A stretch of DNA of 62,843 nt, the filler included, from Collodictyon triciliatum (taxonomy: Eukaryota): assembly GCA_043381765.1 (NCBI GenBank). It is 6 parts of 6 records of this genome, joined end to end, with 100 filler letters (N's around TTAATTAATTAA, not from the genome) between each part and the next. Parts side by side here need not be neighbours in the genome. Positions count along the whole stretch, not along the records: positions 45,370 to 56,593 come from JBHJMP010002454.1; 5 more parts are not named here. One strand, given 5' to 3'. Positions 11,265-62,843 of this stretch are shown in pieces. The translations under genes were made by a program, and so were the position numbers. Within the stretch, counting starts at the first letter, position 1; each line of letters starts with the position of its first letter. Under the pieces are notes generated by a model that saw only the letters and a program-made list of their open reading frames with translations, did no database searches and was not told the DNA's origin.

Positions 11265-11364
11265 NNNNNNNNNNNNNNNNNNNNNNNNNNNNNNNNNNNN
11301 NNNNNNNNTTAATTAATTAANNNNNNNNNNNNNNNNNNNNNNNNNNNNNNNNNNNNNNNNNNNN
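11265..11364. other. Artificial contig linker
   Basis: N44-TTAATTAATTAA-N44 (stops in all six frames). Confidence 0.99.
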
Positions 11365-22605: not shown

Positions 22606-22705
22606 NNNNNNNNNNNNNNNNNNNNNNNNNNNNNNNNNNNNNNNNNNNNTTAATTAATTAANNNNNNNNNNNNNNNNNNNNNNNNNNNNNNNNNNNNNNN
22701 NNNNN
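22606..22705. other. Artificial contig linker
   Basis: N44-TTAATTAATTAA-N44. Confidence 0.99.
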
Positions 22706-33938: not shown

Positions 33939-34038
33939 NNNNNNNNNNNNNNNNNNNNNNNNNNNNNNNNNNNNNNNNNNNNTTAATTAATTAANNNNNN
34001 NNNNNNNNNNNNNNNNNNNNNNNNNNNNNNNNNNNNNN
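33939..34038. other. Artificial contig linker
   Basis: N44-TTAATTAATTAA-N44. Confidence 0.99.
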
Positions 34039-45269: not shown

Positions 45270-45369
45270 NNNNNNNNNNNNNNNNNNNNNNNNNNNNNNN
45301 NNNNNNNNNNNNNTTAATTAATTAANNNNNNNNNNNNNNNNNNNNNNNNNNNNNNNNNNNNNNNNNNNN
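45270..45369. other. Artificial contig linker
   Basis: N44-TTAATTAATTAA-N44. Confidence 0.99.
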
Positions 45370-45522
<153 letters not shown>

Positions 45523-45562
45523 TAATAATAATAATAATAATAATGCAGCTTGGATACAAGCG

Positions 45563-47293
45563 ATGAAGTTTCGTCCGTGCATCGACCTGCACGCTGGGAA
45601 AGTGAAGCAGATTGTTGGCTCCTCCTTGTCCGACAACCCTGGGAGCGCCACACTCCAAACTAACTTTGAGACAGAGAAGTCTGCAGCCGAGTTTGCTGCG
45701 CTCTACAGGGTATTTTTATTTTCCTCTTTTTTTATATATTTTATTTGTTTAGATGATTCGAGTTGTCGTTACCTTTTATTTCTCTTCAATATACCCCATT
45801 CGATTGCGCATGTGTTGGATGCGAAAAGCAAAATAAATAATTTTTCCTATGCTTCTTGGCTTGGGCGGAAAGTAAACAGTGAGTATTAAACCACGAAATT
45901 GTAAAATTTTATCGGCAGAAACATAATCTACTGGGAGGACATGTCATAATGCTGGGGCCGGGAAATGATGAGCAAGTACCCCACCAATACGCGCCACATG
46001 AGCCATGATTCTAAACATTTCTGTCCAGTTTCCCCCAAGCAAATATCCAGACTTGCTAATATTTGATACATTTCGTACATTTTATCATGATTTGTGTGAA
46101 ATATATATATTAAAGATATATCTCACATTTGTATTACAGTTGACTCAAACATGCTAATTTGTCATATATTCCTATACTTATTTTCGTATTCGCCTCTTTC
46201 TCTCTTTCTTTTTTTAATATAAAAGGCTTTACTCGCGTTGAGAGAATATCCTGGTGGTCTACAGATTGGTGGCGGAATCAATTCGGATAATGCAGCTTCA
46301 TATTTACAAGCTGGTGCTAGTCATGTGATTGTGACATCGTATGTTTTCAGAAATGGGAATATTGATTTCGAGAGATTGGAGAGCTTGGTTTCCAAAGTCT
46401 CAAAAAATAAGCTAGTTTTGGATTTGAGGTATTAAACCCCTGATTAGAGTAATCTTGAGAAAATGATCAAGAACACCAAATAAGGCCGATGTACCCAAGT
46501 TGGCACTTTATTTTTTTTATTACATTTTTGAGTTGTACAGTCGATTGCTTTATTAATCCATTCCAATCAATTCATCATTGGTTCTTTTCACTGACGTTGG
46601 GACCTATTATAGTTGTCGTTCGAGAGATGGTGTGTATTATGTGGTCACAGATAGATGGCAAACGTTCACAGACTTTGAAGTCAGCGAAGTTTGTGCCCGC
46701 TCCTCTCTTTCTCCGATTTGATATTACACGCTGACCTTCACGTTTTTAGACAGTTTCAATCAATTTTTGAAAGTAGATCTAATTTTAGGAAAATCTTAAG
46801 AAATTGGCTGGATACTGTGATGAGTTCCTTGTCCATGGGGTAGATGTGGAGGGAATGAGGTGTGGAATTATGGAAGACCTTGTGGAAAAGGTACAGTTTA
46901 TTCTCGTCATTATCCTCGCCTTTTAAACGCGATTTGCATAGTAAGACATTTAGGGTTCATGATAAAATTTTAAACTCAAGAATTTTATTATCTTGCGTGA
47001 CACATTTTTCTTTCTTTCAAAAAATCGTGATTTATATCACGACACATAAAATAGTAATTAAAAAATCAGAAATCAAACAACCTTTTATCTAGCTTGGAAA
47101 ATGGAGTCCCATCCCAGTGACCTATGCTGGAGGTGCAAGATCTCTGGGCGATTTGGATCTGGTGGAGCGCCTTGGCCAAGGTCGTGTCGATTTGACGATT
47201 GGGAGTGCCTTGGACATTTTCGGGGGTGCCGAACTCGCCCTGGAAGAGGTCGTCGCATGGCACCTCAAGAGGAATCCCGTCTCTATTCATTAG
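45563..47293 (+). CDS. HIS6: ProFAR isomerase, eukaryotic HisA (histidine biosynthesis)
   Basis: Six exons: [96 protein letters not shown]. Confidence 0.97.
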
Positions 47294-47839
47294 TAAAATT
47301 TTGGACTCTTTTTTTCTTATTTTGCAGTCGATATGCATACCATAAACTCGATGGCGAGTGAAGTTGCGCTACTAGCGTTTCGTTTCGGGCCGCTCGTCAG
47401 GAAAACCAGACAACGAGCCATCGAAAGCTCAAATCTATGTGTTTTGAACATTACACACTCGTCCCTCGATTCTAATTCCAGAATTAGATAGTAACGACCA
47501 GCGGTTTTTTTTTGTGTGATCATGTCTGATCGTCTTTGATCACAGCACGAAGCGAAGGATTTTTTCTCTGGGAAATAACCGTTCAGGATATGGTCGAAGA
47601 GTACTCGAAGGCAGAGAAGACGTGACCAAGGATTTGAGCGAAACTGCAAAGTGTCGTGTGCAGGCTACAAACAGATCACCCAAGGAAACGATTCATAGTT
47701 GCCCGTTGTGTGGTATGTGTGATTGCTTGTTGTACTTTTCCTAGGCCAAGCGAAGCAGAAGAGAGGAAGGACAAAAGAAAGGAAGCTACAAAGAAAAGAA
47801 CAGAGTATCGCAAGAAAAACAAAAAACAACCGAGGAAAA

Positions 47840-49753
47840 ATGGCCGATAAAAGTGGGGCGAAAGAGCAGTTCATCTCTTCGGCAACAAGCGAATCTGCCT
47901 TCCTTGATCTTGTTAAGTTCAAGGGCCTTGCAGGTGCTCGTCAGCTTCTCATCATTCCTTCTATGCATATCTACGACTTTGACTTTAACTTTGACTTTGA
48001 CTTTGAACTCAAAAAATTGTGTAGTTGTGGACGTGTACTCGAATTGGTGCGGCCCATGCAAGGCAATTGTTCCGACCTTCAAAAAACTTTCCTTCGACTA
48101 CAGCGAACGGCCTGTTCGATTCCTCACGGTAAATCAAGACTATTTTGTGATTTTCTTTTTTCCGCGCATGTTGCTGGTGTTATTTTACGTCGAAGAGTTG
48201 TTTACGGAAATCAATGCTGTAACGTCGAAAGAGATAAAAATTGAATTAATTGGTGTGTGTATGTATGTATGTATGTATGTATGTATGTATGTATGTATGT
48301 ATGTATGTATGTATGTATGTATGTATGTATGTATGTATGTATGTATGTATGTATGTATGATGTTTGTGATTCTTTATTTCCTCATACATTTCTCTTGTTA
48401 TTCCGAGTACCTCTTGTTTCTTGATGTAAAATCCCTACAATTTTTTCCTTTTTCAGGCAGAAGCAGATAGTATTCCTTGTTTGTCCCAGCACGCCAAAAA
48501 GTCTCAGCCAGTAATTCAAGTTTATAAAGTAAACAATCATTCAACTATTTAGGGATGTATCTGAAAATGTGATTAGAATACGCACTGCCAAACAAAATGG
48601 ATTATGCTTACCCGTCTATTCTTGCAAAGAACTACTTATTCTCTTTTCTTTTTCTTTTAGAACGTCAACAGGTTCTTTGGCTTTATAATTATTTTTCTAT
48701 TTGGCAATTTCGCTTGTAGGACGGCGACCTCGTGGAAACCATTCAGGGAGTCAACGCACCTCGCCTTCTTACAGTTGTTGCTCAGAATCTTCCAGACGGA
48801 GATTCAAAAGATGATGTTATTGAAGAGGTATATATAGAATAAAGGTTTATCACACGAGTATATTTTAGGTCCTAAAATCATCTACCTAATTAATATGGTA
48901 ACATATTAACTACACAGCAAAATGAGCAAGAGAAGAAGGACTTGGCGGAAGAGGAGGCATTGTTTACATCAAAGCCTTTGGGTGATGGTATGTCTTTGAC
49001 TTCCTTTTTTTTTTTCCCCCCTTTTTTTTGTCTAGTAATGTATACTTCGTGAGTGAATTATCACTTGCTGTTATTTGAAATTCAAATAACATAATATTTC
49101 CTTGAAGTGAAGAAAAGGGAGAAAATCTCATTCTTATTGAGCTAATCAAGAAATCACTACTATCATTTTAATACAACTTCATAAATTGCACCCTCAGAGC
49201 AATCTAACGAGGTTGAGTGTAAGTCATTCATGTAGCTTAACATACCCAATGAAGTAAGATAAAAACAGTCGATGAATGAAACGAATTATTAAAAGTTTCC
49301 TTTTTCTTCTTCTTAATTTACCATATCTTATCATTTGTGACCATAGTTCTTCCCCAAGACAAGATGGTTGTCACTGCAAGTATGGTTCCAACAAGAAACG
49401 AGCCTGCCAACGAACATGGTTCTGTAGGACATTTGGATTCCCAAACACAAGGTTTAACTTATTATCCCATACAACAAGTCCTCTCGTTAATACTCATCCC
49501 AGTTCCGAATGTGAATATGTAATACGTCAATAATAAATAACTTTCAACGATGCCGAACAGAGGAAGGGAATGGAAAGGTTTGACTATGTATCGATTGAAC
49601 ATTTATTCCCACAGAAAATTGCCAATATTTTTATTTTAAAAACAAAAAATGCAGGATGATGAAGGGTCAGAAGGAAACGAAGGGCAGACTGACGGCGAAG
49701 AAAACGCAGGCCCCGTTTCCCCAGGGAGAGATGAGCCTCGTCCATCCACCTAA
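47840..49753 (+). CDS. Thioredoxin-domain protein of NME8/NME9 (outer-arm dynein thioredoxin) type with acidic tail; 3' exons uncertain
   Basis: [26 protein letters not shown]...FLTAEADSIPCL...QPVIQVYKDGDLVETIQGVNAPRL resembles the TRX_NDPK subfamily; no NDPK domain seen. Confidence 0.8.
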
Positions 49754-50371
49754 TTGGGTCTCACAGGGGAACGATAGCTATTGGTTCATTCTGTTTGTTT
49801 TATTTCAAACGCTGCGGCACTCCCCATGGACACAGGACGGCTCAATAAAATCTTATTTTTTTGGATACGCATCACTTTCTTGATAAATATGTATATATCT
49901 GTATGTCTGTCTTTTGTTTTGTTTCTGTTGTTACGTCATATTTTGTTTTGATTGGTTTATTTGGTTTATGCACCTGCTTGTGTGCCTGGATACAGCTAAC
50001 CCAGTCTCTTTTTTGTGCGCAATGGTAATATCGTGTACTCAACCCCTTACCAACACTTTCAACCCAACTCCATTCGCAGCGACTGAATTATGTAGAGTAA
50101 ATTGCTCCCTTTTTCTTTTTTCTTTTTTTCTCCCTCCCAGCTTTCTCTCTCGTTTTCTATTATCTTTCTTTCACACACTAATGAATCAGCGATCAGTGTT
50201 CACCAACTCCTTGTGTTTGATCCATCCTTGCCTCGGTTGTCCTCTATCAGAAGGGTGAAGCTTGCCATGTTTGCCGGCTGTTGTCATCGAACTCAAAGTG
50301 TCAATATCGGCAGGAAGGTTGAGTCGATCGTAAGGGTGAAAGAAAAGCAACTTTGCAGGAGCTGCCTTGCA

Positions 50372-50691
50372 ATGATGGAATGTTGGAGACTGCCTCTCGC
50401 GAGACCTGTTATGGTCGCGTTATTGCACTCGGTTGTTTTTGCGCTGAGCTTTTTTTTCATGGCACAGAGTCCAGCAAGAGCCAACGCCCTTATACGCACA
50501 CCAAGGCAAGTCTTAGTTAACCAAATACGATCTATCGTACTTGTTCCATTCTGATCAATGATATACTTGCAGAACACTTATAGATGGGAGCTTGTTCCTT
50601 TTTTCTTTTTTTACCCCACGCTCTCGTCTTTCCTGACTTTCTCCCTTTCTTCCATCCCTCGATATCATCCATCTCCATTTTTGTCTATTGA

Positions 50692-50788
<97 letters not shown>

Positions 50789-53700
50789 TCTCTGCACAGC
50801 ATTGGACCAATTTATGATCAGAATCTAGAATCAGGACATTACTCGACGTGTCGCTACTCTCGCCATGAATTATTATCGATGGATAGATCAGAAGCTTTTG
50901 ATATTCTCTTAGGACTACATCAAGATATATGTGAGGTTAACCTAGGTGATGACATGCCACATGATAGCCCAGTTGTATGTCCATTTTCAGAATCGCACCA
51001 TGAAGCCACTAATTCAGATATCGAGGAATGGAATGACGGTCAAACAGAAAATAAAATCTCACAAATCATCCCAGAAGCAAAGAGCAGGCATACTGACCTT
51101 AAAAGTTATGAGGAAGTATCCACAAAATCTATGAATAAGCATCCAGAATCAATTGCATCACATCTGCCGAGTCTTTTTCCCATAGGAGGGGATAAAGACC
51201 AAAAAAATGATACACAAATGGAGGATTACTTATTCCCTTTTAATATAGATGGAAAGGCCTCTTTCATATCTGATATAGATGAAGGTTGCATAGAATCATT
51301 CAAGTACAATAATTTTACTTTCATGGGCACCACGTACAATAGCATGTTTGTCTGCGTCAATGGATTGGTTTCCTTTGATGGCTCGGACCCTGGTAGAATT
51401 CCAAAGATGATATTAATGCAAAAGCATCCCATCATTGCACCCTTTTGGGCAGATGCAAGTCTGAAAAGCGTCAAAGATGGATACAATCCTGGTAAAATAT
51501 ATTATGAAATTGTGCCAGCGTCGGCAGGATATATAGACCGATACAATATCCTCATCAAATCAATGGTTTCAGGAGAAGAAAATTTTGAAGCAACGCGCAT
51601 ATACCTTGTAACATGGCACCGGATAAGAGCTTGTTGTGGTTATGCAAATCAGCATAATACTTTCCAACTTGCTATCATTTCAGATGAAACAAGCTATTTC
51701 GCCCTTATTCACCATGTGCCTTTAGGGATCCAGTGGACGTCGCCGTCATATGCTACTCATAGTCCGATTGTGGGGATTGCATTTGGGAATGATGGACACA
51801 GCTTTAGTAATATTATATTCGATGGGCTACAAATGACGAAAGAAAAAGGAGCAGACTACATCCGCAACCATAGAACATTTTTATTTAAAATACACGTGAA
51901 TGACATTCCTGGTTATGTCGTCACTGAAGACATTAATGCAAAGGCCTCCAGGGCTTATGCAATTGCGGACCAAGTTGATGAGCTCATGAATTTTTTCAAT
52001 TCTACTCATGGCAATAATTGGCACAAATCCTTTAACTGGGGGACCAGTAGTCCTGTCTGTGGATGGTTTGGGATTGTTTGTTCATATACTTGCAGCTCGC
52101 TCGATTTTAAGAGGAACACATGTCCTGTCATCGCCATTACCCTTCAATCAAACAACCTAGTTGGAACGATGCCGGATTTGAATCTCCCCCAATTACAATA
52201 CTTATTCCTAAGCAATAACAAACTATATGGCAAGTTTTTTTTATAAAAGAAAGTGATATCTATTTCATGAGGTTGACTCCAGATAAGAAAACATATTATA
52301 TTCAAAATAAATATTGAATTCACAAATGGCTTTAGGTCAGCTACCGCAACTAGAGTTAACAGTCCTGCAAACAATAGCACTTAACGATAATCAATTTAAC
52401 GGTAGAGTTTTTTATTTTTATTTTGGTTTTTAATTTTGGTTTTTAATTTTGGTTTTTAATTTTGGTTTTTGGTTTTTGGTTTTTGGTTTTTGGTTTTTGG
52501 TTTTTGGTTTTTGGTTTTTGGTTTTTGGTTTTTGGTTTTTGGTTTTTGGTTTTTGGTTTTTACCTCGCCCATTTGAAGTTAAAATTAAGTAGAGCTATTC
52601 TTGCCCCATAGGAACGATTCCAAATTACCGGTTACCTTTTCTTCAGCAACTATATTTGGACAACAATCAACTTTCAGGTTTTTTGCATATAGTTTTAACT
52701 CTCTAGTATATCTAGCATCTCTATTATCCCTCTTCTCCCACTCGCCACCTCCCCTAGCAATATAATCGATTTAATTCTTCTAATTATTATTGTATTCTAT
52801 GTTGTAGGAGGACTTCCCGATTTGCAGCTTCCATTACTTCAGAAGTTGGTGTTATCAAACAATTTTTTAACTGGTATTGCATGTGTTTTAAAAAATTATG
52901 CATAAGAAGCTTTCTCAAATTTTCTGTTTTGAACAATATTCCTTTCACCAGTTCAAATCTTTATGCTTCTGCTTTATTCTACAGGAGCTCTTCCATCTGT
53001 AGATCTGCCATCACTGGCTTTTTTTCAAGTCAATAACAACTTTTTTACTAGTAAGAAGCCACATTTTAATATATTATTTTATAATCGCGTCATCAAAACG
53101 ATTTATAATTCATACTATGATTTCGAAAGCTAACGCTATGAATAATTCCTTTGGAATAGGTACGATGCCTTCATTCTTTACACCCTACATCCAAGTAATT
53201 CACCTGAAGAAAAATTATCTGAATGGTAACCATCATGTAGAATAAAGCTTTTTCACATATTCATATTTAGTCCAAATAGCATATCCCATTTTATTGTGTT
53301 CCCTTATAATTCTATATTCAGGCACTGTCCCTAGCATGGACTTATCAAATCTACAGGAACTTTGGGTCAACATGAATAAATTTGTTGGTATAGTTTGAAG
53401 TATTTGGAATAGGATATCACGCATCACCTACTTCACTTTAACTTCATCTTTTTTGGAACTCTAATTTTCGTGAATTCTCCAATATATGTGTCAATATACG
53501 AATTTAATAGGAGATGTGCCAAACTTCAATTTACCACAAATTCAAATATTGGACATGGATACCAACAAATTAGATGGTTTTTTTATATTAGATTAACCCT
53601 AAAACAATAATATACACGATGCACGCTTGTCATAAGCCTTTGATGACTTAGTATGTAATTTAGTTTTGAAATCTAGGGACCATATCCAACATAGAATTGC

Positions 53701-54057
53701 CCTCTCTTCGCTCACTGGGATTATATAAGAACCAATTAAAAGGTAAATCATGAAATATCGCTCTCTCTAATGAAGTGCTTGATATCATCTTTATTTCAAA
53801 ATAGGGTCAATACCTGGTTTGTCTGCGCCAAATATTGTCGATTTATGGCTGAATAACAACATGCTGGATGGTAACAAGAAAATCAAATATAACGAGAATT
53901 ACATCTTAATAAACTTGCATAGTATTTGTAAAAATTAAATACCAACATTACGGTATTATGGTATAAATAAAAGGACCAATACCAAATTTTGACTTACCCG
54001 AGCTGCAAAAGTTGATATTGAGCTATAACAATTTAAATGGTTAGTCCACTATGTTCG

Positions 54058-54156
<99 letters not shown>

Positions 54157-56394
54157 TCATATTTTCATATTTTCATATTTTCATATTTTCATATTTTCAT
54201 ATTTTCATATTTTCATATTTTCATATTTTCAAAATGTGAATGATCTCCCACGAAATCAAAGTCGTAGCTAATATGGACATTATACTTATTATATTAAGAA
54301 GTTAGATTAGAGAGATATACAAAAGGATTTGTATGTGCAGATGATTTTATTAAATTTGTCAAGAGGGATTGACAAAAAAAAAAAAATACGTTTTAAAAAC
54401 TAACGCATAGGAACAATACCTGACTTTAGTCTTCCTAACCTCCAGCAACTTTCGCTTGACAATAATAAATTGACTGGTATAATATATTCGTATTATTAAA
54501 AGAAATCAGAGAGGTAACCTTTCATAATTAATAGGAACTGTCCCCAACTTTCAATCCGTCCAAAATCTGATCATTCTGTTCATCGATAGAAATCGATTTT
54601 CAGGTGAGGTATTTCACCAACCTAGAGCCATCTAAGTCATTTATACTGGTGTTATGACATTTAGATATATATGAAAGCAACCATATAACCTAGTTGAAAC
54701 TGAAAGAGCTCAACCAACAAAAAAAAAAAAAATTGCATCATTAAAGTTAACCATTAGGCACCCTTCCAAATTTCGAAAAATGCAAGAATGTACTGATGAT
54801 ATCGGGATATGATAATAGTTTCACCTCATGTTTGCGATTTTAATAAGCACTATGCAATAATTAGTCGATATGCTGAAAATGTTAGATTAAACTATTAGTT
54901 TTATGTCACTTTTAATCAATTTTTTTTATAAAAAAATACAGTTTCCATGATGTCAAATCTATGGTATCTGCAAACTTTGTCCTTATCTCATAATAATATA
55001 ACTGGTCAGCATTTTTTCCCCTTAATTTGATTCCAATCCTGGTCGGCATTTATAGAACAGAAATGCGCACTAGATTTGTTTTTTATTTGTATTTTTTTTT
55101 AAAAAAAAAAAATCTGTAGAATTATTCTCAATACACATCCTTACGGGGTTTTAATTAAAAAATATACTCATGGTAGGAAACCTTCCTGATTTGGACAATT
55201 CGTTGCTTACTGACCTTGATTTGTCGCTTAATAATCTCAATGAACACCTTCCCTCATGGCAATTACTCAGTAATATAAAAAGACTAGATTTGTATGGAAA
55301 CCAAAATCTCCCTGGCGCTTTACCCAAAGGCATGAACAATTATAAGGACTTGGTGACACTCTCTATTCTCAGTACGCTAATGGAAATAGCAGATGTAAAG
55401 CCATCTTCTAGGTTACTTCCTAAGGTACTAGAGTTCTCTGATTCATTTCAAATTCAAGATTCTGATGACGATTTCCAATGTCCTGTCGTCTACAATCCTA
55501 ATGTAGACCATTCGATGATTGAATTTAACTCTACTTACTACAAGAATATCGCATGTAAATGTTTACCGGGATATTTTGGTTTCGGTAAAAATTGCATGAA
55601 ATGTCCTGATGGATGCGAGTGTGATGGAGATACATTAAAAAATTGTTTTTTCACTCCGATCAACATTTCATCGATTAAAGATATAATCGTATGTTCAAAT
55701 CCAGATGTATGTGAATTTTCCCTTCCATATGATTCTGAAGGGAGGATTCTCGTGTACAATAACGGGCTCAGAACTGAATGTCCCGATGGTTACGAAGGCC
55801 GAGGCTGTTCCAAATGTGAAGAAGGTTATTCATTGGATGGAAGTAGTTGCAACAAATGCGATTTACATTTTACAATCACAACAACTATATCCTTCTTAAT
55901 CATCTTTGTCGGAGGTTTTATTCTATCTCTTGCTGTTGACTGGTTTGATGTTTTGGAATCTACAAATGGATCAGGTTATTTTAAAATAACAGCTTTCTTT
56001 TTCAATTTAAGTAATTGTCGTAATTCCTCATTCTTTTCTTTGAATTTTTTGGGTAACCAAAATAAACTATATGGAAGATACATCAGAGTTTATATTTATA
56101 TATGAATATTAATTCACCAATTATTGAAAAAATATAGATGTACTTTCCATATTCCTGTTTCATTCCCAAGCCATCCAAATTGTGTCATCAGTATTTAAAG
56201 TGTCATTTTCTGTCCGGTTCATTCAGTCCATATCATCTCTTCTTTCTTTCCAACTTCCTGGGTTGGAATGCTTTATTGGTAACAAACCTGCTATCATAAA
56301 CGCACTGAATCTAATCCGGGTCCCTGGCATCATGTTTGGAGGGTTTCTCCTTTATTTATGGTTCAGAAAATACAGGCCAGAGAATAGGGACAAA
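50372..56394 (+). CDS. Large receptor-like protein: signal peptide, NIDO-like domain, LRR N-cap, LRR array, Cys-rich region, multi-TM domain (3' truncated)
   Basis: NIDO-like (FMGTTYNSMFVCVNGLVSF, IIAPFWAD, YLVTW, NTFQLAIISD, IQWT); cap NWGTSSPVCGWFGIVC; LxLxxNxLxGxxP repeats; CKCLPGYFG...CPDGYEGRGCSKCEEGY; hydrophobic helices to the contig end. Confidence 0.9.
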
Positions 56395-56490
56395 GTATTT
56401 TATTCATTAATATACCCTATTTTGAATTGTGAGTATGTGGAAGAATATTATTGTTATTAGTGTTTGTTTATTTTCCCTTATTCGAAATTA

Positions 56491-56591
<101 letters not shown>

Positions 56592-56593
56592 TT

Positions 56594-56693
56594 NNNNNNN
56601 NNNNNNNNNNNNNNNNNNNNNNNNNNNNNNNNNNNNNTTAATTAATTAANNNNNNNNNNNNNNNNNNNNNNNNNNNNNNNNNNNNNNNNNNNN
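56594..56693. other. Artificial contig linker
   Basis: N44-TTAATTAATTAA-N44. Confidence 0.99.
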
Positions 56694-56824
56694 TTTCTTT
56701 TCTTTCTTTTCTTTCTTTTCTTTCTTTTCTTTCTTTTCTTTCTTTTCTTTCTTTTCCTGTCCTCTAAATAAGAGCGTGCGACTCATCATTCGCTCTACCT
56801 TGTCGGAATGTATGTGCTGCATAG

Positions 56825-57941
56825 GCATGGAGCGCAAGGACCTCCTTGAGCAGAACGGAGCCATCTTCACCACTCAAGGAAAGGTAGGCCACAGTCACAC
56901 AAATACAGAAGATTCCTCCACAATTCGAATATCCCCTACTTCTCTCTCTTCTGTCATATCCGCAGTGGTTCATTTTCGTACAAACATAGAAAGCAAGATG
57001 AGAAACAAAATATTCAAGGGATTATACATTGAAGCATCCCTTGCACTCATACATTTATTTCTCTTGGGTTACTCCTGAACGATTTCCCTCATTAACGAGC
57101 CATTTCTGTTGAGATTTTTTTTAATTACAACCTGCCCACCAACGACCCGATTTCCACTTCTCTCTCTCCTTCTCTCCCCACCAAGGCGCTCAACGCCGTC
57201 GCCAAGAAGAACTGCAAAATCCTGGTTGTCGGAAACCCGGCCAACACCAACGCCCTCATCGCCCAAAAGAACGCCCCGAACATCCCCGCCGAGAACTTCA
57301 CCGCCATGACCCGCCTGGACCACAACCGCGCTGTCTCTCAGGTCTGCTGTCGAATCACACCACCCATCCAATCACACCACATCACCCAACCACACCACAT
57401 CACCCAATCAGACATCATCACCCAATCACACATCATCATCAAATCACACCGCCCCCATCAGGTCGCACTCAAGACGGGCGCACACGTGTCGGAGGTGGAG
57501 AAGATCGTGGTGTGGGGCAATCACAGCAGCACGCAGTACCCGGACCTGTCGTACGCGACGGTGAAGGGCGTTTCAGCGAAGCAGGTGATCGGAGACGAGG
57601 AGTGGGTGCAGAAGACGTTCATCCCGGACGTGCAGCAGCGCGGGGCGGCAGTCATCAAGGCGCGCGGAGCCTCCTCGGCCGCATCGGCCGCCAACGCCGC
57701 CATCGAGCACATGCGCGACTGGGCGCTGGGCACGCAGGGCAAGTGGGTGTCCATGGCCATCCCCAGCGACGGCTCCTACGGCATCCCCGCCGGCCTCATC
57801 TACTCCTACCCCGTCACCTGCGCAAACGGCCGCTACGAGCGCGTCAGGGACCTGCCTGTCGACGCCTTCAGCCGCCAGCGCCTCGACGCCACCCGCGACG
57901 AGCTGGCCTCCGAGCGCGACTCTGTCCGCCACCTGCTCTAA
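56825..57941 (+). CDS. MDH1: Cytosolic-type malate dehydrogenase (5' truncated)
   Basis: Three exons: [71 protein letters not shown]. Confidence 0.96.
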
Positions 57942-58246
57942 CGCGCCACCCGTCACTGCCACCCATCACTATCATCCACAGGCGAAATGAAGCAACAACT
58001 TCCTTCCCGCCCGCCCGCCCGTACATGTTGCTTTCGTCGAGGTTTATTCTGGCCGCAGGATTGTGTGCGGGTGATTAGTCGGACGCCTGTCGTTGCTCCT
58101 CGGTTGCCGTTGTTGTAGTGTTTGCTCTTCTATGCGCGGGCAGAAGAATTGGGTGAGGGAAAGAAAGGAAAAGAAAAGGACGGGAGGCGGAGCAGAAGAG
58201 ACAGGCGCGGCTGCCTTGGCGCTCTCACTCAGTCACTCTCCTTTCT

Positions 58247-61200
58247 CTAGCGGCGGAGATGGATGACGTAGGTCAGGCAGTAGAACGTGCCCACGAGAAA
58301 GGCGCCGTAGAAGGCAAACATGGTGAAGAAGAGCCCCCACTTGTCGTTGTCGTCTGTGGGCATGTCGAACTGCTCGAGCAGGTCTGCGCCGTTGTTGATG
58401 GGGCACTCGCAGGTCAGCCCGGGCAGAGGCTGCGCGCACGTAAAGTCGAGGTCGCTGACCTCGTTGATGGTGAGGGCGGCCAGCGGGTAGCGGATGAAGG
58501 ACAGGTAGTACATCCAGATCCACGGGTCCGGGATGCTGTTCTTTGGCAGCAGGAAGCCCGAGAAGAGCGCCATGGCCGTCATTCCGATGGGCGCCACGCC
58601 GTTGGCCACCTCTGCGCTGGGCGACGACGCCGCGACAAACTGGCAGAACGAGATGGCTAGGATGTTGACCATAAAGTACGTCACGATAAAGAACCCGAAG
58701 CGGCTGCCTCCGTCCCCGTAGTTGAAGTCCACCATAAAGTACATCAGCAGCACGAAAATCATCATGCTCACAAACGCAAACGGAATCTCCACAATCACAC
58801 TCGCCAGAAAGTATGCCACGGGGCGGTAGTACCCGGCTGCTCGCTCGCGGTAGTAGACGTTGCGGTCGCTGATCAGCAGCGAGATCGACGAGATGGAGCC
58901 CAGGATGGCAAACAGCATGCAAAAGAACATCAGGCTCACGCGGTTGCGCGCCCCGCTCTGGTCGCCCGACAGGTCAAAGAACATCGACCCAATCACAAGG
59001 CCCATCATGATCGAGCGGAAGTTGCGTGCGCGGCGCACAAGCGGCCGTCGTGCGTAGCTCTTGAAGGCCCGGCGCAGATTCTCGGCAATCTGCCGCCCCA
59101 AAGGCTGCGCAAAGACCGTGCGGTAGGTCGGCGGAGTCACACCGGCCGGAGTCACGCCTGCACCGAGCGTATCGTCCAAATCTCGCAGGAACTGTGACTC
59201 CTGGAACGACTTGACAGCGTCGATGTGCGAGTACTCACGATGGTCAATGCCTGCACCCGTGGCCTCCAGGATAAAGTCGGCCGGGTTCTTGAATGGCGGA
59301 CACTTGGCTCCAAGCTTCTCAAAGTAGCCCAGCACCGTCGAGCAGTTCTCTCCCATCGGCCCAAAGTACACTTGCTGTCCGCGCCCGTTCAGAAGCAGCA
59401 GCCAGTCAAAGAGCTGAACAATCTCCACGCCAGGTTGATGAATCGTGCACATCACTGACCGTCCTCGATTTGCTACGGCGCGCACAAGACGCATGATGTT
59501 CTCGGCAGCCCCAGAATCCAGTCCAGACGTCGGCTCGTCCAGGAACAGCAGAATCGGGTTGCTCACAAGCTCCACTGCAATGTTGAGCTTCTTGCGCAGC
59601 TCAGGACTCAGCCCACTTCCAGGCACACCCACGACCTTGTCCTCAAACTCACGCAACCCAACCTCATCAATGATATCCTCCACCTGACGCATCTTTTGGT
59701 CCACAGACATCTCAGCAGGCAGTCTCAGCATGGCACTGAAGATGACCGCCTCACGAACCGTCTGTGTCTCTAGATGGATATCTTGCTGCTCTACATAACC
59801 GCTCATGCGTGGGAAGTACTCATTACGTGGCTGTCCATTAATCAGAAGATTCCCATCAATAATGCCGCCCGTCTTTCGGTTTGCAAGGATATCCAGCAGT
59901 GTGCTCTTGCCGGCTCCGGAAGGCCCCATCAAAGAGACAAGCATACCCGGCTTCACGTATCCGCTCACTCCCTTGAGAATGACCTTGCGCTCTACTGGTA
60001 CCTTCTTCATAAAGTATTTACCACCTGGGCAGTAGTCTCTGGGCTTCGGGTCGTCCAGCTTGATGTCCACAGCATAGCGGATATTTTGGAATGACATGTA
60101 TGCGCCGCGTGCGGTCGAGGTGGACCCGTACTTTTGCTCACGCCCAAGCAGACTCTTCTTTGTAGAAGTTTCCTCAGAGATGTTTTGAGCATCAGCAGAG
60201 AACTTGTCTCCTCCATCTTGATTACCACGAGCAGAAAAGCTGATCGGCACTCCGACCTCCGTCTGGGTCAAACTGTCGGCACGTTGACGTCCAACAGAGT
60301 TGGGATTCTTTTTCTTGCGGAAAAGAAGTTTCGCATCGTTCTCGCTGGTTCCGCTGCTCGGTCGAAGATACTGCAGAGCAAAGTATGTCGCCAAGGAAAA
60401 GATTCCAAAAAACAAAAACACCATGACCAGGCAAAAGTACTTTTGATTCTCGTTTTCTGTCTCCATGTCATACTTTTCAAGCATATCCTTTCCTTCAGTA
60501 ATCGGACAAATCAATGGAACATTGTCACAAATAATCTTTTCACTTTCCAGACACGAAATGTCTTTCAACTGGAAGAATTCATTCATGGCGAGTCCCTGTA
60601 AGCAAGAGCAAGATATTAGGCTTGTTGTCCAGTTGCAAAAAAAAATAAAAAAAAAAAGTAAAAAAATAAAAATAAAAATGCAACATAGGGTCTAAATCGA
60701 TGAAAAGCAGATTTATACGTCAAAGTTAACATACCTCCAAGCCGTAGCGGAACATAGAGATATGATACATCCAGATCCAGTAATCTGGAATGTCATCCCT
60801 CGGCAAGAGATATCCAGTCATCAAAAACATCAGCGCCAGTCCAGTGGGGGCAAGGGCGTTGGCAACCAGCAGAGATGGAGAGACGGCAGAAACCATACGG
60901 CAGAAGGCATTCGACGCAAGCTTTACAGAAAACATTTGGGCTGTAAAGAACATAAACGCACTTCCAGAGTCTCTGAGTCCGACAAGATAGTAGACTATCA
61001 CGGCAAACAAGAGAATCTCAATAAATGCGATAGGTATTTCAAATGTCAACGTCGAAAAGAAGTAAGCCTTGGTGCGGAAGTAGTACGTGCTTCTCTGGTG
61101 GTAAAAGACTTCTCTTTCTTCCAGCAGTGGAGGGATGGCTTGGAGAGCACCCATTCCTGAGAAGGCCAGACAAAAGAAGATCAAACCGAAGCGATTTTCA

Positions 61201-62720
61201 GTGTCCGCCTGATTCTTTCCCAGGTTCCAAAAAAGGGTTCCCATGAGCAACCCAAGAATCATACTGCGGACAAGACGAGTACGAACAACTTTGGCATCGC
61301 GAGACATGACAGTGCGAGTACGCTTGCAGATTTCGATGAATTGCATCCAGGTCGGGATGGCATACTTTGACCCGTAATCAACAACCATGTCAACGACTTC
61401 CTCCGGCGCAATACCCTTCCACAGAAGCTTTCCGACTTCTTCGTAGTAGGGCGAGTTCTTGTAGGCGCGGACAAGGTCCTTGGGGCCGTTTAACTTCGGA
61501 CGCTCACCATAGCCAGCAGGCTCCAGGTATTTTAGAGGAGTATCCGTGATTTCCTCTGCATAATGAAATGAAAGCGTATTTGTAATCACAGAAAATGCGG
61601 AGAGGAGTAATGTATAAACCCCTTTAAATTACTGGCCAGGGTCTGCAACTGCAAATATTTTCATATCCCTTTTCTATCGGGTAAATCATGGACTTACGAA
61701 AAAACTCGGCAGGATTCTTGATGGTTGGGCATCGCAACCCAAGACCAGCAAAGTAGTTGAGGGCGTCCTTGCTGGGGCCAAAGTAGGTGACTTCTCCGTG
61801 GCTCAGCAGCAGTAGTGTGTCAAACAGCCCAAAGAGCTCTACACCTGCTTGAAGCAGAGAACAAATGACACCAACACCAGAGTCGGCAAGATTCCTGGTG
61901 GCTTTGATCACCTATTATCATGCAATTAATTTTTCCAGTCCATAAACACTCAATTCAAACCTCCCGAATATATGAAAAGATATGGTGGCTGCTATTACAT
62001 CAAAGGCAGCAGCAGAGTCCAGCCCGGTCGATGGCTCGTCCAAGAAGAGGATTTGGCGGTTCAGCACGGCCTCAACACCGATGGTCACACGCTTCTTTTC
62101 ACCTCCAGAGACACCACGGAGCATCGTGTTTCCGACGATATTGTCTGCGACATGGCTCAGCCCAACCATCTTCAGAGTTTGAGTGACCTGCACAAACGAC
62201 GGCGTGTGTCAGTTGTTTGTCATTCAAGTTCGACGCGTGAAATTGGACAGAAATAATACAAAGAGATGAACAAAGGTAAATATGTTGCGATGGTTCGGAA
62301 GTGGCTTTCGTACGCGTCGGTCCTTCTCAGCGTCGCTAATCGAGGCGCGCAGACGCACAGCAGCACTGAAGCGGAAAGTCTCTCGGACAGTCAATGTTGC
62401 TACATAAAAGATGTTCATACAGAAATCAATACTGGTTGGAAGGGAAGAGTATGTGTTGTCGAAGAAATGCTACACTTCATGTTGTGCAACTATTCGATGC
62501 TAGCCTGGTTATATGAAAGGGAAGCAAGCAGAAACTCACGGATGTGGATATCCCGTTGGGAGACATAGCCAGCAATGCGGGTAAAGAAGCGGTCGCGAGG
62601 CTTGCCGTTGACGAGAAGCTCACCAGTAAAGTCACCCTTCTTGCGTGTTCCAGCCAGAATGTCAAAGAGCGTGGTCTTTCCCGAGCCAGGATGGCCAACA
62701 ATCATAATCATCATGCCGGG
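58247..62720 (-). CDS. Full-size ABCG/PDR-type transporter (NBD-TMD-NBD-TMD), 5' end beyond window
   Basis: NBD1 GHPGSGKTT, VSGGEKKRV, LDEPSTGLD, CSLLQ; TMD1; NBD2 GPSGAGKST, GYVEQQD, LSPELRKKL, LDEPTSGLD, CTIHQP; TMD2. Confidence 0.97.
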
Positions 62721-62757
62721 CTGTAGAATACAAAATAAGTAAATGACGAACAAAGAG

Positions 62758-62806
<49 letters not shown>

Positions 62807-62843
62807 AAAAAAAAAAAAAACACAACTTAGAGGAGGGAATGAT

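What the first reader, a model, noticed from the sequence alone, without database searches (positions are those of the whole stretch)
52230..55176. One-LRR-per-exon cassette array in a NIDO-LRR-TM receptor
Seen: eleven consecutive exons of exactly 66 nt (52336-52401, 52612-52677, 52808-52873, 52985-53050, 53160-53225, 53322-53387, 53511-53576, 53677-53742, 53805-53870, 53974-54039, 54411-54476), then 69, 72 and 63 nt (54535-54603, 54758-54829, 54942-55004). All introns are phase 1, nearly all splitting the Gly codon of the GxxP motif. Scaffold residues are conserved while the xxLxLxx face differs in every exon (QTIALND, QQLYLDN, QKLVLSN, AFFQVNN, QELWVNM, RSLGLYK, VDLWLNN). Inference: any exon can be skipped, duplicated or swapped without a frameshift, giving a combinatorial ligand-binding surface like the exon-shuffled LRRs of brown-algal ROCO genes. 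Here it is on an extracellular receptor, a candidate prey or pathogen recognition system. None of it is visible in the ORF track.
Basis: partly seen in the sequence, partly recalled or inferred. Interest (0 to 1): 0.8.

Follow-up and report, generated by a model that had tools for sequence, protein, structure and literature searches.

The report
One-repeat-per-exon LRR surface protein gene
A protist gene for a large cell-surface protein builds its leucine-rich-repeat domain from 14 tiny exons, one repeat each; the layout is real but is a known pattern, and nothing tested shows the exons being mixed to make variant receptors.

Summary
Fourteen exons of 66 (x11), 69, 72 and 63 nt lie at the stated coordinates. 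All have AG/GT borders and all introns are phase 1. Each exon encodes one 21-24-residue LRR. Spliced into an 18-exon model, the gene gives 1194 codons without a stop. The product aligns colinearly (38% over 754 columns, E 9e-134) with transcript-derived proteins of Diphylleia rotans.

The protein has a signal peptide, a NIDO domain, an LRRNT cap, about 18 LRRs, a Cys-rich stalk and a multi-pass membrane domain. It is not single-pass. It belongs to a large family with no Pfam model or solved fold for its stalk and membrane module.

The exon register (G of GxxP to NxLx, split Gly codon) matches the published brown-algal "type I LRR exon".

The hallmarks of active shuffling are absent at this locus:
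- The exons are only 32-61% identical.
- The introns share no similarity.
- No relic LRR exons lie in the introns on either strand.

In 53 isoform comparisons from the relative's transcriptome, none skips a whole LRR. One swaps a single LRR unit.

RNA contigs show that the gene is transcribed and spliced at its 3' end, but they do not cover the array.

Verdict: an old tandem exon duplication, most likely spliced constitutively. Combinatorial use is untested.

The parts
50372..50505 (+). Exon 1: start codon and hydrophobic signal-peptide-like N-terminus (model residues 7-25)
   Evidence: ORF reading. Hydropathy. The frame joins exon 2 only through the GC donor.
50506..50799 (+). Intron 1, phase 2, GC-AG (donor GCAAGT), holds an (AAT)32 microsatellite
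50800..52229 (+). Exon 2: acidic linker, NIDO domain (about 51338-51748), LRRNT_2-like cap (about 51965-52084), first two LRRs
   Evidence: Pfam NIDO 1.8e-21, 77.4 bits against cut-off 25. LRRNT_2 20.3 bits against cut-off 20.7. LRR_4 8.2e-4 on 52100-52228.
52230..55176 (+). The LRR mini-exon array with its 15 phase-1 introns (58-371 nt, median 111)
52336..52401 (+). LRR exon 1 of 14, 66 nt (preceded by a GC-AG intron)
52612..52677 (+). LRR exon 2, 66 nt
52808..52873 (+). LRR exon 3, 66 nt
52985..53050 (+). LRR exon 4, 66 nt (ends in A, so the next unit starts with Ser)
53160..53225 (+). LRR exon 5, 66 nt
53322..53387 (+). LRR exon 6, 66 nt
53511..53576 (+). LRR exon 7, 66 nt
53677..53742 (+). 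LRR exon 8, 66 nt
53805..53870 (+). LRR exon 9, 66 nt
53974..54039 (+). LRR exon 10, 66 nt
54411..54476 (+). LRR exon 11, 66 nt
54535..54603 (+). LRR exon 12, 69 nt, atypical unit
   Evidence: Aligns to equally atypical units of P0155, P0154 and P0007.
54758..54829 (+). LRR exon 13, 72 nt, atypical unit with a Cys conserved in homologues
54942..55004 (+). LRR exon 14, 63 nt, starts with Phe instead of Gly
55177..55974 (+). Exon 17: two more LRRs, C-terminal cap, Cys-rich stalk (15 Cys), first TM helix
   Evidence: One search found 165 relatives. One search shows the invariant Cys pattern. The exon's 3' end is fixed by a spliced RNA contig.
55975..56137 (+). Intron, 163 nt, phase 1, GT..AG, removed in an RNA contig of run X1
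   Evidence: table 5 (1 contig, depth 4.12)
56138..56394 (+). Exon 18: further TM helices. It ends at 56394 by RNA contig 4. A sequence-only model would run to 56428 (GTGAGT). The rest of the gene lies beyond the contig end at 56593.
   Evidence: tables 7 and 8

Best explanation
This is an intact, transcribed gene of a microbial eukaryote. It encodes a large surface glycoprotein with a signal peptide, one NIDO domain, an LRRNT-type cap and a solenoid of about 18 plant-type LRRs of 22 residues. The repeat consensus is GxIPxxxLPxLQxLxLxxNxLx. A Cys-rich stalk and a multi-pass membrane domain follow. The LRR domain was built long ago by tandem duplication of a frame-neutral (phase 1-1) 66-nt exon that holds exactly one repeat. 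The intron sits inside the G|G of the Gly codon. The copies have since diverged into position-specific units, and the array is most likely spliced constitutively into one long ectodomain. Shown: the exon structure, the domain content, family membership, and transcription with splicing at the 3' end. Inferred: the extracellular topology, ligand binding by the LRR concave face coupled to the membrane domain, and constitutive splicing of the array.
For: Exon anatomy and open spliced frame. Old divergence: the 55 pairs of 66-nt exons are 32-61% identical (mean 48%), and adjacent pairs are no closer (49%). No intron-to-intron similarity beyond microsatellites and low-complexity runs. No relic or antisense LRR exons in the introns; the best minus-strand hit has E 4.5. 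Exons 12-14 are atypical in length, in a Cys and in a non-Gly start. They align with at most 1-residue gaps to equally atypical units at the same place in three homologues, so at least these are fixed, non-interchangeable positions. Introns are short (58-371 nt, median 111); from general knowledge of splicing, this goes with intron definition, where exon skipping is rare. Domains: NIDO at 77.4 bits. Family: 165 hits with E<=1e-3, 19 with E<=1e-30. Invariant Cys pattern in the stalk. Homologues carry 3-9 predicted TM segments. A spliced RNA contig joins 55974 to 56138. 0 of 53 isoform comparisons in 24 multi-member Diphylleia clusters lack a whole LRR.
Against: No RNA covers the mini-exons of this gene, so constitutive splicing is not shown. 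LRR number differs widely among homologues: the LRRNT-to-stalk distance is 288-890 aa in 27 proteins, so units have been gained and lost in the family. One Diphylleia gene has transcripts that differ by exactly one LRR unit. The isoform evidence comes from short-read Trinity proteins of another organism, and such assemblies resolve repeats poorly. Paralogues in the window's own genome could not be examined because no genome is held.
Confidence: 0.6

Rival explanations
1. DNA-level cassette turnover. LRR exons are still being duplicated, deleted or exchanged between paralogues or alleles of this family by recombination or gene conversion, as in Ectocarpus ROCO genes. This locus would be one snapshot of a diversifying receptor repertoire.
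For: The exon register and symmetric phase match the shuffled brown-algal type I LRR exons. LRR array length varies about three-fold among homologues. P0169 versus P0015/P0168 are 99.3-99.9% identical apart from one replaced LRR unit, and P0015's only mismatches (about 2 of 1735 aligned residues) lie just downstream of that unit. Mosaic diverged blocks occur in otherwise about 99% identical proteins, P0156/P0007 and P0152/P0002. The 26 representatives looked up are 26 separate 50%-identity clusters in one transcriptome.
Against: At this locus none of the published hallmarks is present: no intronic relics on either strand, no similar introns, and no exon pair above 61% identity. No donor unit for the swapped Diphylleia LRR was found among the fetched proteins; the best match is 11 of 23-24 residues. 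Trinity can build chimeras between paralogues.
Confidence: 0.2
2. Combinatorial alternative splicing. Individual LRR exons are skipped or chosen in different combinations to give many ectodomain isoforms from one gene.
For: Every array exon is frame-neutral. Brown-algal ROCO genes with the same exon type are reported to have up to nine splice variants with different LRR content (PMC11378527, passages). One Diphylleia isoform lacks 12 residues starting exactly at the Gly of a GxIP motif, as an alternative acceptor would give. The one-unit swap in P0169/P0015 could also be a pair of mutually exclusive exons.
Against: 0 of 53 isoform comparisons skip a whole LRR. The swapped-unit transcripts also differ at two nearby residues, which fits alleles or paralogues better than one pre-mRNA. 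Short introns favour intron definition (general knowledge). No conserved intronic elements that could act as selector sites were found. The terminal units are position-specific.
Confidence: 0.12
3. The array is a decaying or mis-assembled locus (pseudogene or assembly artefact) with no functional product.
For: The gene is cut by the contig end in a microsatellite. The RNA contig and the sequence-only model disagree on the end of exon 18.
Against: 1194 codons are open across 18 exons. All splice sites are canonical or GC-AG. An RNA contig is spliced at a predicted intron. The Cys pattern of the stalk is fully kept.
Confidence: 0.03

Closest known systems
Brown-algal 'type I LRR exons' of Ectocarpus and Saccharina (ROCO genes and other LRR loci; PMC3341825, PMC11378527)
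   Same: One LRR per exon. The exon runs from the G of GxxP to NxLx. The first two bases complete a split codon and the last base opens the next. Lengths are multiples of 3, so the exons are frame-neutral. PMC3341825 section 15 says 46 of 164 non-ROCO, non-kinase LRR loci also have them.
   Different: 66 nt and 22 residues here against 72 nt and 24 there. The protein here is extracellular with NIDO and a multi-pass membrane domain, not a cytosolic LRR-ROC-COR GTPase. No intronic relic exons, antisense exons or recombined near-identical exons were found here. The relatives are from a very distant lineage (CRuMs). Which of the 46 loci are membrane proteins would be in the paper's supplementary table, which I could not open.
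Vertebrate glycoprotein-hormone receptor LRR exons (LH receptor, as cited in PMC11378527; otherwise recalled)
   Same: LRR ectodomain made of same-phase single-repeat exons in front of a multi-pass membrane domain. It is the classic example of LRR growth by exon duplication (passage).
   Different: Those receptors have a rhodopsin-type 7TM domain. No 7TM Pfam family matched the homologues scanned at E<=0.1 or at E<=0.01, and GPCR rows in the fold search had TM-scores of only 0.08-0.16.
Unnamed head-LRR-stalk-multi-TM family in the Diphylleia rotans transcriptome (EukProt proteins such as P0155, P0154, P0156, P0163, P0173)
   Same: Same 22-residue LRR register, LRRNT cap, stalk with invariant Cys pattern and following TM helices. 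Colinear at 31-38% identity over 700-870 columns. Some members also have NIDO heads: P0156 has three, P0163 has one.
   Different: The best identity is only 38-47%, so this exact gene is not in that set. Other members carry FG-GAP_2 heads instead (4 of 12 scanned). Their gene structures are unknown.
Plant LRR receptor ectodomains (LRRNT_2 + GxIP-type LRRs)
   Same: LRRNT_2-type cap and GxIP-type repeats. The LRR part of the family model aligns to plant LRR ectodomains (GSO1, ERL1, BIR2, SERK2) at Z 4.2-5.1.
   Different: Repeats are 22 residues, not 24. There is no kinase. The membrane part is multi-pass. The Z values are in the noise range that the tool itself states.
Fungal and protist PF06011 'TRP' membrane proteins; polycystin-1 as an analogy (recalled)
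   Same: PF06011 matches below threshold at the same profile region (about 228-407) in 3 of 10 homologues. Atlas neighbours include clusters in which 12-13% of members carry PF06011. Polycystin-1 likewise joins an LRR-capped ectodomain to a channel-like multi-pass domain (recalled, not tested).
   Different: All scores (16.5-23.1 bits) are under the 28.5-bit cut-off. No TRP or PKD channel appeared in either fold search. The window's own copy of this domain is mostly missing.

Membership tests
Exon-shuffled type I LRR exon arrays (Ectocarpus ROCO type, PMC3341825) | Each LRR on its own exon of constant length divisible by 3, with symmetric phase | tested here: met
   14 of 14 exons; 66 nt x11, then 69, 72 and 63; all phase 1-1
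Exon-shuffled type I LRR exon arrays (Ectocarpus ROCO type, PMC3341825) | Exon register GxxP...LxxLxLxxNxLx | tested here: met
   In the 11 units of 22 residues: G at position 1 in 10 of 11, P at position 4 in 10 of 11, N at position 19 in 11 of 11.
Exon-shuffled type I LRR exon arrays (Ectocarpus ROCO type, PMC3341825) | Noncoding or relic LRR exons inside the introns, often on the opposite strand | tested here: not met
   Six-frame profile scan: no intronic hit better than E 1.3 on the plus strand or 4.5 on the minus strand
Exon-shuffled type I LRR exon arrays (Ectocarpus ROCO type, PMC3341825) | Signs of recent recombination or duplication (near-identical exons, homologous introns) | tested here: not met
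   Highest exon pair identity 61%, mean 48%. Only microsatellite and low-complexity repeats in the introns.
Exon-shuffled type I LRR exon arrays (Ectocarpus ROCO type, PMC3341825) | Alternative transcripts with different LRR exon content | tested here: inconclusive
   Run X1 has no contig over the four mini-exons that were laid, 54411-55004; exons 1-10 were outside the laid stretch. In the relative's transcriptome, 0 of 53 comparisons skip a unit and 2 of 53, both in one cluster, swap one.
ROCO proteins | ROC-COR GTPase tandem after the LRRs | tested here: not met
   No such Pfam hit in the window's exons or in 21 different homologues scanned. A stalk and TM helices follow the LRRs instead.
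NIDO domain (PF06119) | Score above the Pfam gathering cut-off | tested here: met
   77.4 bits against 25, E 1.8e-21, profile positions 1-131 of 186
LRRNT_2-capped plant-type LRR domain | LRRNT_2 (PF08263) cap before the repeats | tested here: inconclusive
   20.3 bits against a cut-off of 20.7 in the window. Above the cut-off in homologues P0008, P0014 and P0015.
Head-LRR-stalk-multi-TM family seen in Diphylleia rotans transcripts | Stalk with the conserved Cys pattern, followed by TM helices, colinear with family members | tested here: met
   24 invariant columns, 16 of them Cys, in A1. E 5.6e-66 to P0002. Spliced model E 9e-134 to P0155.
PF06011 TRP-like membrane domain | Score above the Pfam gathering cut-off over the membrane domain | tested here: inconclusive
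   The window's 96-residue TM exon gives no hit. Homologues score 16.5-23.1 bits against 28.5 in 3 of 10. Fold searches list no TRP channel.
LGR / glycoprotein-hormone receptor type (LRR exons + rhodopsin 7TM) | Rhodopsin-family 7TM domain | tested here: inconclusive
   No 7TM Pfam family at E<=0.1 in 10 homologues. GPCR rows in Foldseek have TMq 0.08-0.16 and E>=0.047.

The most novel reading that the evidence does not exclude
A deep-branching predatory protist lineage (relatives of Diphylleia, CRuMs) may have evolved its own diversified surface-recognition repertoire. It would be a large family of NIDO- or FG-GAP-headed LRR proteins on a membrane domain of unknown fold. In this reading the single-repeat, frame-neutral LRR exons are swapped between alleles or paralogues, or chosen alternatively, to vary the binding face. 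The one-unit LRR swap between otherwise near-identical Diphylleia transcripts would be the first trace of it.
Probability: 0.1. Interest if true: 0.8.

Novelty: new member of a known kind. Interest (0 to 1): 0.4.

Why it matters
The layout itself (one LRR per symmetric exon) is textbook evidence that LRR domains grow by exon duplication. It is already described for brown algae and vertebrate hormone receptors, so this gene adds a lineage, not a principle. Two things are worth keeping. First, the same exon register turns up in a lineage far from brown algae. That points either to a very old exon type or to repeated intron placement in the G|G of the GxxP glycine. Second, the gene belongs to a large family with no Pfam model or solved fold for its stalk and membrane module, and no paper found on LRR proteins in Diphylleia. 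The family has NIDO or FG-GAP heads, an LRR solenoid, a Cys-rich stalk and a confidently folding membrane domain. It is expanded in a predatory protist group of interest for the origin of animal-type extracellular domains. If cassette exchange were shown, it would be an independent invention of a diversifying LRR receptor system.

Tried and rejected
- Own genome: none is held, so paralogues of the same genome could not be collected.
- Sequencing runs: no RNA holder is listed as such. The single run X1 (share 0.05, kind guessed) was laid on 54232-56480. It covers only 55507-56406 in part (10 of 30 bins).
- N-terminal exon searched against longer proteins: 1 hit among 1654 candidates, a fish SNED1 through its NIDO domain only.
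- Two metagenome scans: 40 and 39 pattern matches, none confirmed.
- Unit-by-unit positional orthology between this array and homologues: variable-position score matrix (z<=1.2; the script stopped on the fifth homologue) and register-shift alignment (best register z 1.2-2.2). Both were inconclusive, and the unit parser missed atypical units.
- Search for a donor of the swapped Diphylleia LRR unit: none found.
- Fold of the stalk + membrane module (P0013 with alignment A2; pLDDT 88.9, pTM 0.84). Foldseek against the PDB gave 0 matches with E<=0.001. VIA-wide gave best Z 6.5 to Hrd1 (rmsd 6.6, 179 aligned) and none with Z>=8. This is below the tool's own noise level for helical bundles, and the model is over 400 residues, so nothing can be concluded about the fold.
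- Housekeeping exon (HisA-like) searched to see how near named organisms are: best identity 78%, to bacterial HisA. No near-identical protein was found, so the organism stays unplaced apart from the LRR family's relatives.
- Earlier findings of the scan: nothing on this genome or sequence.
- Rfam and tRNA scans of the contig: nothing, so no intronic snoRNA explains the introns.
- Literature: 0 papers for 'Diphylleia rotans' + 'leucine-rich repeat', for 'each LRR' + 'single exon' + 'intron phase', and for 'NIDO domain' + 'protist'. One irrelevant paper for NIDO + LRR + diatom.
It was compared only inside scripts.

Full report
**What is in the sequence.** Eleven are 66 nt, followed by 69, 72 and 63 nt. 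All fourteen are preceded by AG and followed by GT.

Each of the 15 introns from 52230 to 55176 lies after the first base of a codon. Thirteen of them split a Gly codon. The other two give Ser (exon at 53160) and Phe (exon at 54942). The first of these introns, 52230-52335, has a GC donor (GCAAGT). So has the intron after exon 1.

Every exon encodes one leucine-rich repeat of 21-24 residues. From the column counts the consensus of the 22-residue units is GxIPxxxLPxLQxLxLxxNxLx. The Asn is kept in 11 of 11 units, and the Gly and Pro in 10 of 11.

If any of the 15 introns were retained, an in-frame stop would follow within 1-27 codons. The 18-exon spliced model is open for 1194 codons.

**The window is not one piece of genome.** Five 100-nt linkers start at 11265, 22606, 33939, 45270 and 56594. 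Each is 44 N, a 12-nt all-frame stop spacer, then 44 N. They separate pieces of 11264, 11241, 11233, 11231 and 11224 nt, plus a cut last piece. These look like contigs of a draft assembly chained in order of size.

The gene's contig is therefore 45370-56593. It ends in an (ATT)35 microsatellite, so the gene is truncated at its 3' end. The GC-rich malate dehydrogenase and ABCG genes after 56694 are not neighbours.

**The gene.**
- Exon 1 (50372-50505) gives a hydrophobic, signal-peptide-like N-terminus.
- Exon 2 (50800-52229) holds a NIDO domain (PF06119, 77.4 bits against a cut-off of 25). It also holds an LRRNT_2-like cap just under threshold (20.3 against 20.7 bits) and the first two LRRs.
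- The 14 mini-exons follow.
- Exon 17 (55177-55974) has two more LRRs, a cap, a stalk with 15 Cys and the first TM helix.
- Exon 18 (from 56138) has further TM helices.

The protein is multi-pass, not the single-pass receptor the title suggests.

**Transcription.** Only one public run, X1, held words of the gene (share 0.05). Laid on 54232-56480, it gave three near-identical contigs and a fourth with only a 42-letter partial match. One of them joins 55974 to 56138 and skips 163 nt with GT..AG ends. So the gene is transcribed and spliced, and the intron I had chosen by homology is right.

Another contig leaves the genome at 56394, directly before a GT, and runs on for 241 letters. Exon 18 therefore probably ends there, not at the GTGAGT at 56429. 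The next exon is not on this contig.

**Relatives.** A full HMMER search with exon 17 found 165 proteins at E<=1e-3 and 19 at E<=1e-30. Of the 30 representatives I looked up:
- 26 are Trinity-derived proteins of the Diphylleia rotans transcriptome in EukProt;
- one each comes from Rigifila ramosa and Rhodelphis marinus;
- two come from unnamed JGI and ENA records.

The spliced model aligns colinearly with these proteins. The best match is P0155, at 38% over 754 columns, model residues 491-1193, E 9e-134. This is independent support for the exon joins.

The family shares the 22-residue LRR register, the LRRNT cap, the stalk (16 invariant Cys in alignment A1) and 3-9 predicted TM segments. The heads differ. 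Of 12 proteins scanned, four have FG-GAP_2 repeats, two have NIDO (P0156 with three, P0163 with one), three show only LRRs and three are N-terminally cut.

The membrane module folds confidently (pLDDT 88.9). It has no clear match in the PDB: Foldseek gave none at E<=0.001, and the VIA-wide best was Z 6.5. PF06011 (TRP) matches lie below threshold in 3 of 10 homologues. Atlas neighbours give only a lead.

**Comparison with the known case.** Section 15 of PMC3341825 (read in full) defines the 'type I LRR exon' as a 72-nt exon reading GxxPxxLxxxxxLxxLxLxxNxLx. Passages of PMC11378527 say that nucleotides 3-71 of each exon encode the repeat. That is the same codon split as here.

The register and phase are thus identical; only the unit is 66 nt instead of 72. 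The same section says that 46 of 164 non-ROCO, non-kinase LRR loci of Ectocarpus also have such exons. It adds that LRR-kinase genes with them show no sign of shuffling. The exon type alone is therefore not evidence of shuffling, even in brown algae.

The published evidence for shuffling is of three kinds: relic or intact LRR exons inside introns, often on the opposite strand; recombined LRR domains between recent duplicates; and alternative transcripts.

**Testing those hallmarks here.**
- A profile of the eleven 22-residue units, run on the six-frame translation of the whole window, finds only the known exons and the unit at 52163-52225. Nothing in the introns scores better than E 1.3 on the + strand or 4.5 on the - strand.
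- The 55 exon pairs are 32-61% identical (mean 48%). Neighbours are no closer than others.
- The introns share nothing but microsatellites and A/T runs.
- Exons 12-14 are individualised in length, in a Cys and in a non-Gly start. They align to equally atypical units at the same place in P0155, P0154 and P0007, so these positions are fixed across family members.
- For the eleven regular units, two tests of positional correspondence were inconclusive.

**Isoforms in the relative.** No RNA covers this gene's array, so I compared the Trinity isoform proteins that share a 90% cluster in Diphylleia. This gave 53 comparisons in 24 multi-member clusters. I left out one 55-residue JGI member.

None differs by deletion of a whole LRR. 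Most differ only by truncated ends. One cluster (2 of the 53 comparisons) shows exact replacement of one LRR unit, 22 against 21 residues, between proteins that are otherwise 99.3-99.9% identical. The closer pair's only other differences are two changes just downstream. No donor unit was found.

One isoform lacks 12 residues starting at the Gly of a GxIP, as an alternative acceptor at an exon start would give. Array length varies widely among homologues: the LRRNT-to-stalk distance is 288-890 residues in 27 proteins, against 493 in the model. Units have clearly been gained and lost over evolutionary time.

**Reading.** The best-supported account (confidence 0.6) is an old tandem duplication of a frame-neutral one-repeat exon, now diverged and most likely spliced constitutively into one ectodomain of a surface protein.

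Ongoing DNA-level cassette exchange in the family (0.2) is kept alive by the single-unit swap, the mosaic blocks in near-identical Diphylleia proteins and the variable array length. Combinatorial splicing (0.12) is possible by arithmetic, but no datum supports it. A dead or artefactual locus (0.03) is contradicted by the open frame and the spliced RNA contig.

The function is inferred: ligand or particle binding by the NIDO-LRR ectodomain, coupled to a membrane domain of unknown activity. A role in prey or pathogen recognition is a guess.

**Novelty.** One LRR per symmetric exon is a known kind, described in brown algae and in the LH receptor as cited in PMC11378527. This is a new member in a distant lineage and on a different protein.

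The protein family itself appears undescribed in the library searched. There were 0 papers for Diphylleia rotans + leucine-rich repeat and 0 for NIDO domain + protist. That is the more interesting by-product.

Supplementary tables of the two brown-algal papers were closed. They may list membrane-anchored type I LRR loci, which would narrow the difference further.

Noticed in passing
window 11265-11364, 22606-22705, 33939-34038, 45270-45369, 56594-56693: The window is a chain of contigs joined by 100-nt linkers (44 N, a 12-nt all-frame stop spacer, 44 N). The pieces fall in size from 11264 to 11224 nt. Genes on either side of a linker are not neighbours in the genome.
   Followed up: yes
window 50506-50799 and 52230-52335: Two GC-AG introns with the donor GCAAGT in one gene. 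The reading frame requires both. Neither is confirmed by RNA.
   Followed up: partly
window 50692-50788, 52421-52561, 54059-54231, 56487-56590: Long perfect microsatellites sit inside the gene's introns: (AAT)32, (TTTTGGT)20, (TTA)32 followed by (TTTCATAT)9.6, and (ATT)35. The last one ends the contig and probably broke the assembly.
   Followed up: no
window 45485-47293 (+): A spliced HisA/His6-like gene lies upstream on the same contig. The exon at 46226-46429 is 72-78% identical to HisA of Paenibacillus and Clostridia, and 69-70% identical to the eukaryotic transcriptome hits listed.
   Followed up: partly
window about 47990-48170 (+): A thioredoxin-like ORF piece with a WCGPC motif, seen by eye in the ORF list. 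It is followed by a (TGTA/TATG)-type repeat that gives long low-complexity ORFs.
   Followed up: no
window 56694-62843: This is a separate contig with much higher GC (up to 0.58). It carries malate dehydrogenase exons on the + strand and an 814-residue intronless ABCG-type transporter ORF on the - strand (58250-60691).
   Followed up: partly
proteins P0169 vs P0015/P0168 (residues about 707-730); P0180 vs P0182 (549-560): In Diphylleia rotans transcript proteins, one whole LRR unit is replaced between near-identical forms. Another form lacks 12 residues starting at the Gly of a GxIP motif. Both breakpoints fit introns at the same Gly position as in the window's gene.
   Followed up: partly
proteins P0156 vs P0007 (1491-1546), P0152 vs P0002 (about 1553-1621): Diverged blocks of 20-56 residues sit inside proteins that are otherwise about 99% identical. 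The cause could be gene conversion between paralogues, alleles, or Trinity chimeras.
   Followed up: no
model of P0013 (stalk + membrane module), residues 200-545: About nine long helices with a conserved Cys-containing beta hairpin loop fold at pLDDT about 90. The best PDB match is only Z 6.5, so this may be a membrane fold without a solved relative.
   Followed up: partly
window 56394/56395 and 56428/56429: The RNA contig leaves the genome at 56394|GT, whereas the sequence alone suggested the GTGAGT donor at 56429. Both continuations resemble homologues. This may be two alternative 5' splice sites or a paralogous transcript.
   Followed up: partly
window 55554-55595 (run X1, record 1): A 458-nt RNA contig matches only 42 nt of the stalk exon, with 4 mismatches, and runs on unlike the window on both sides. 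It is probably an expressed paralogue of the same family in the same organism.
   Followed up: no
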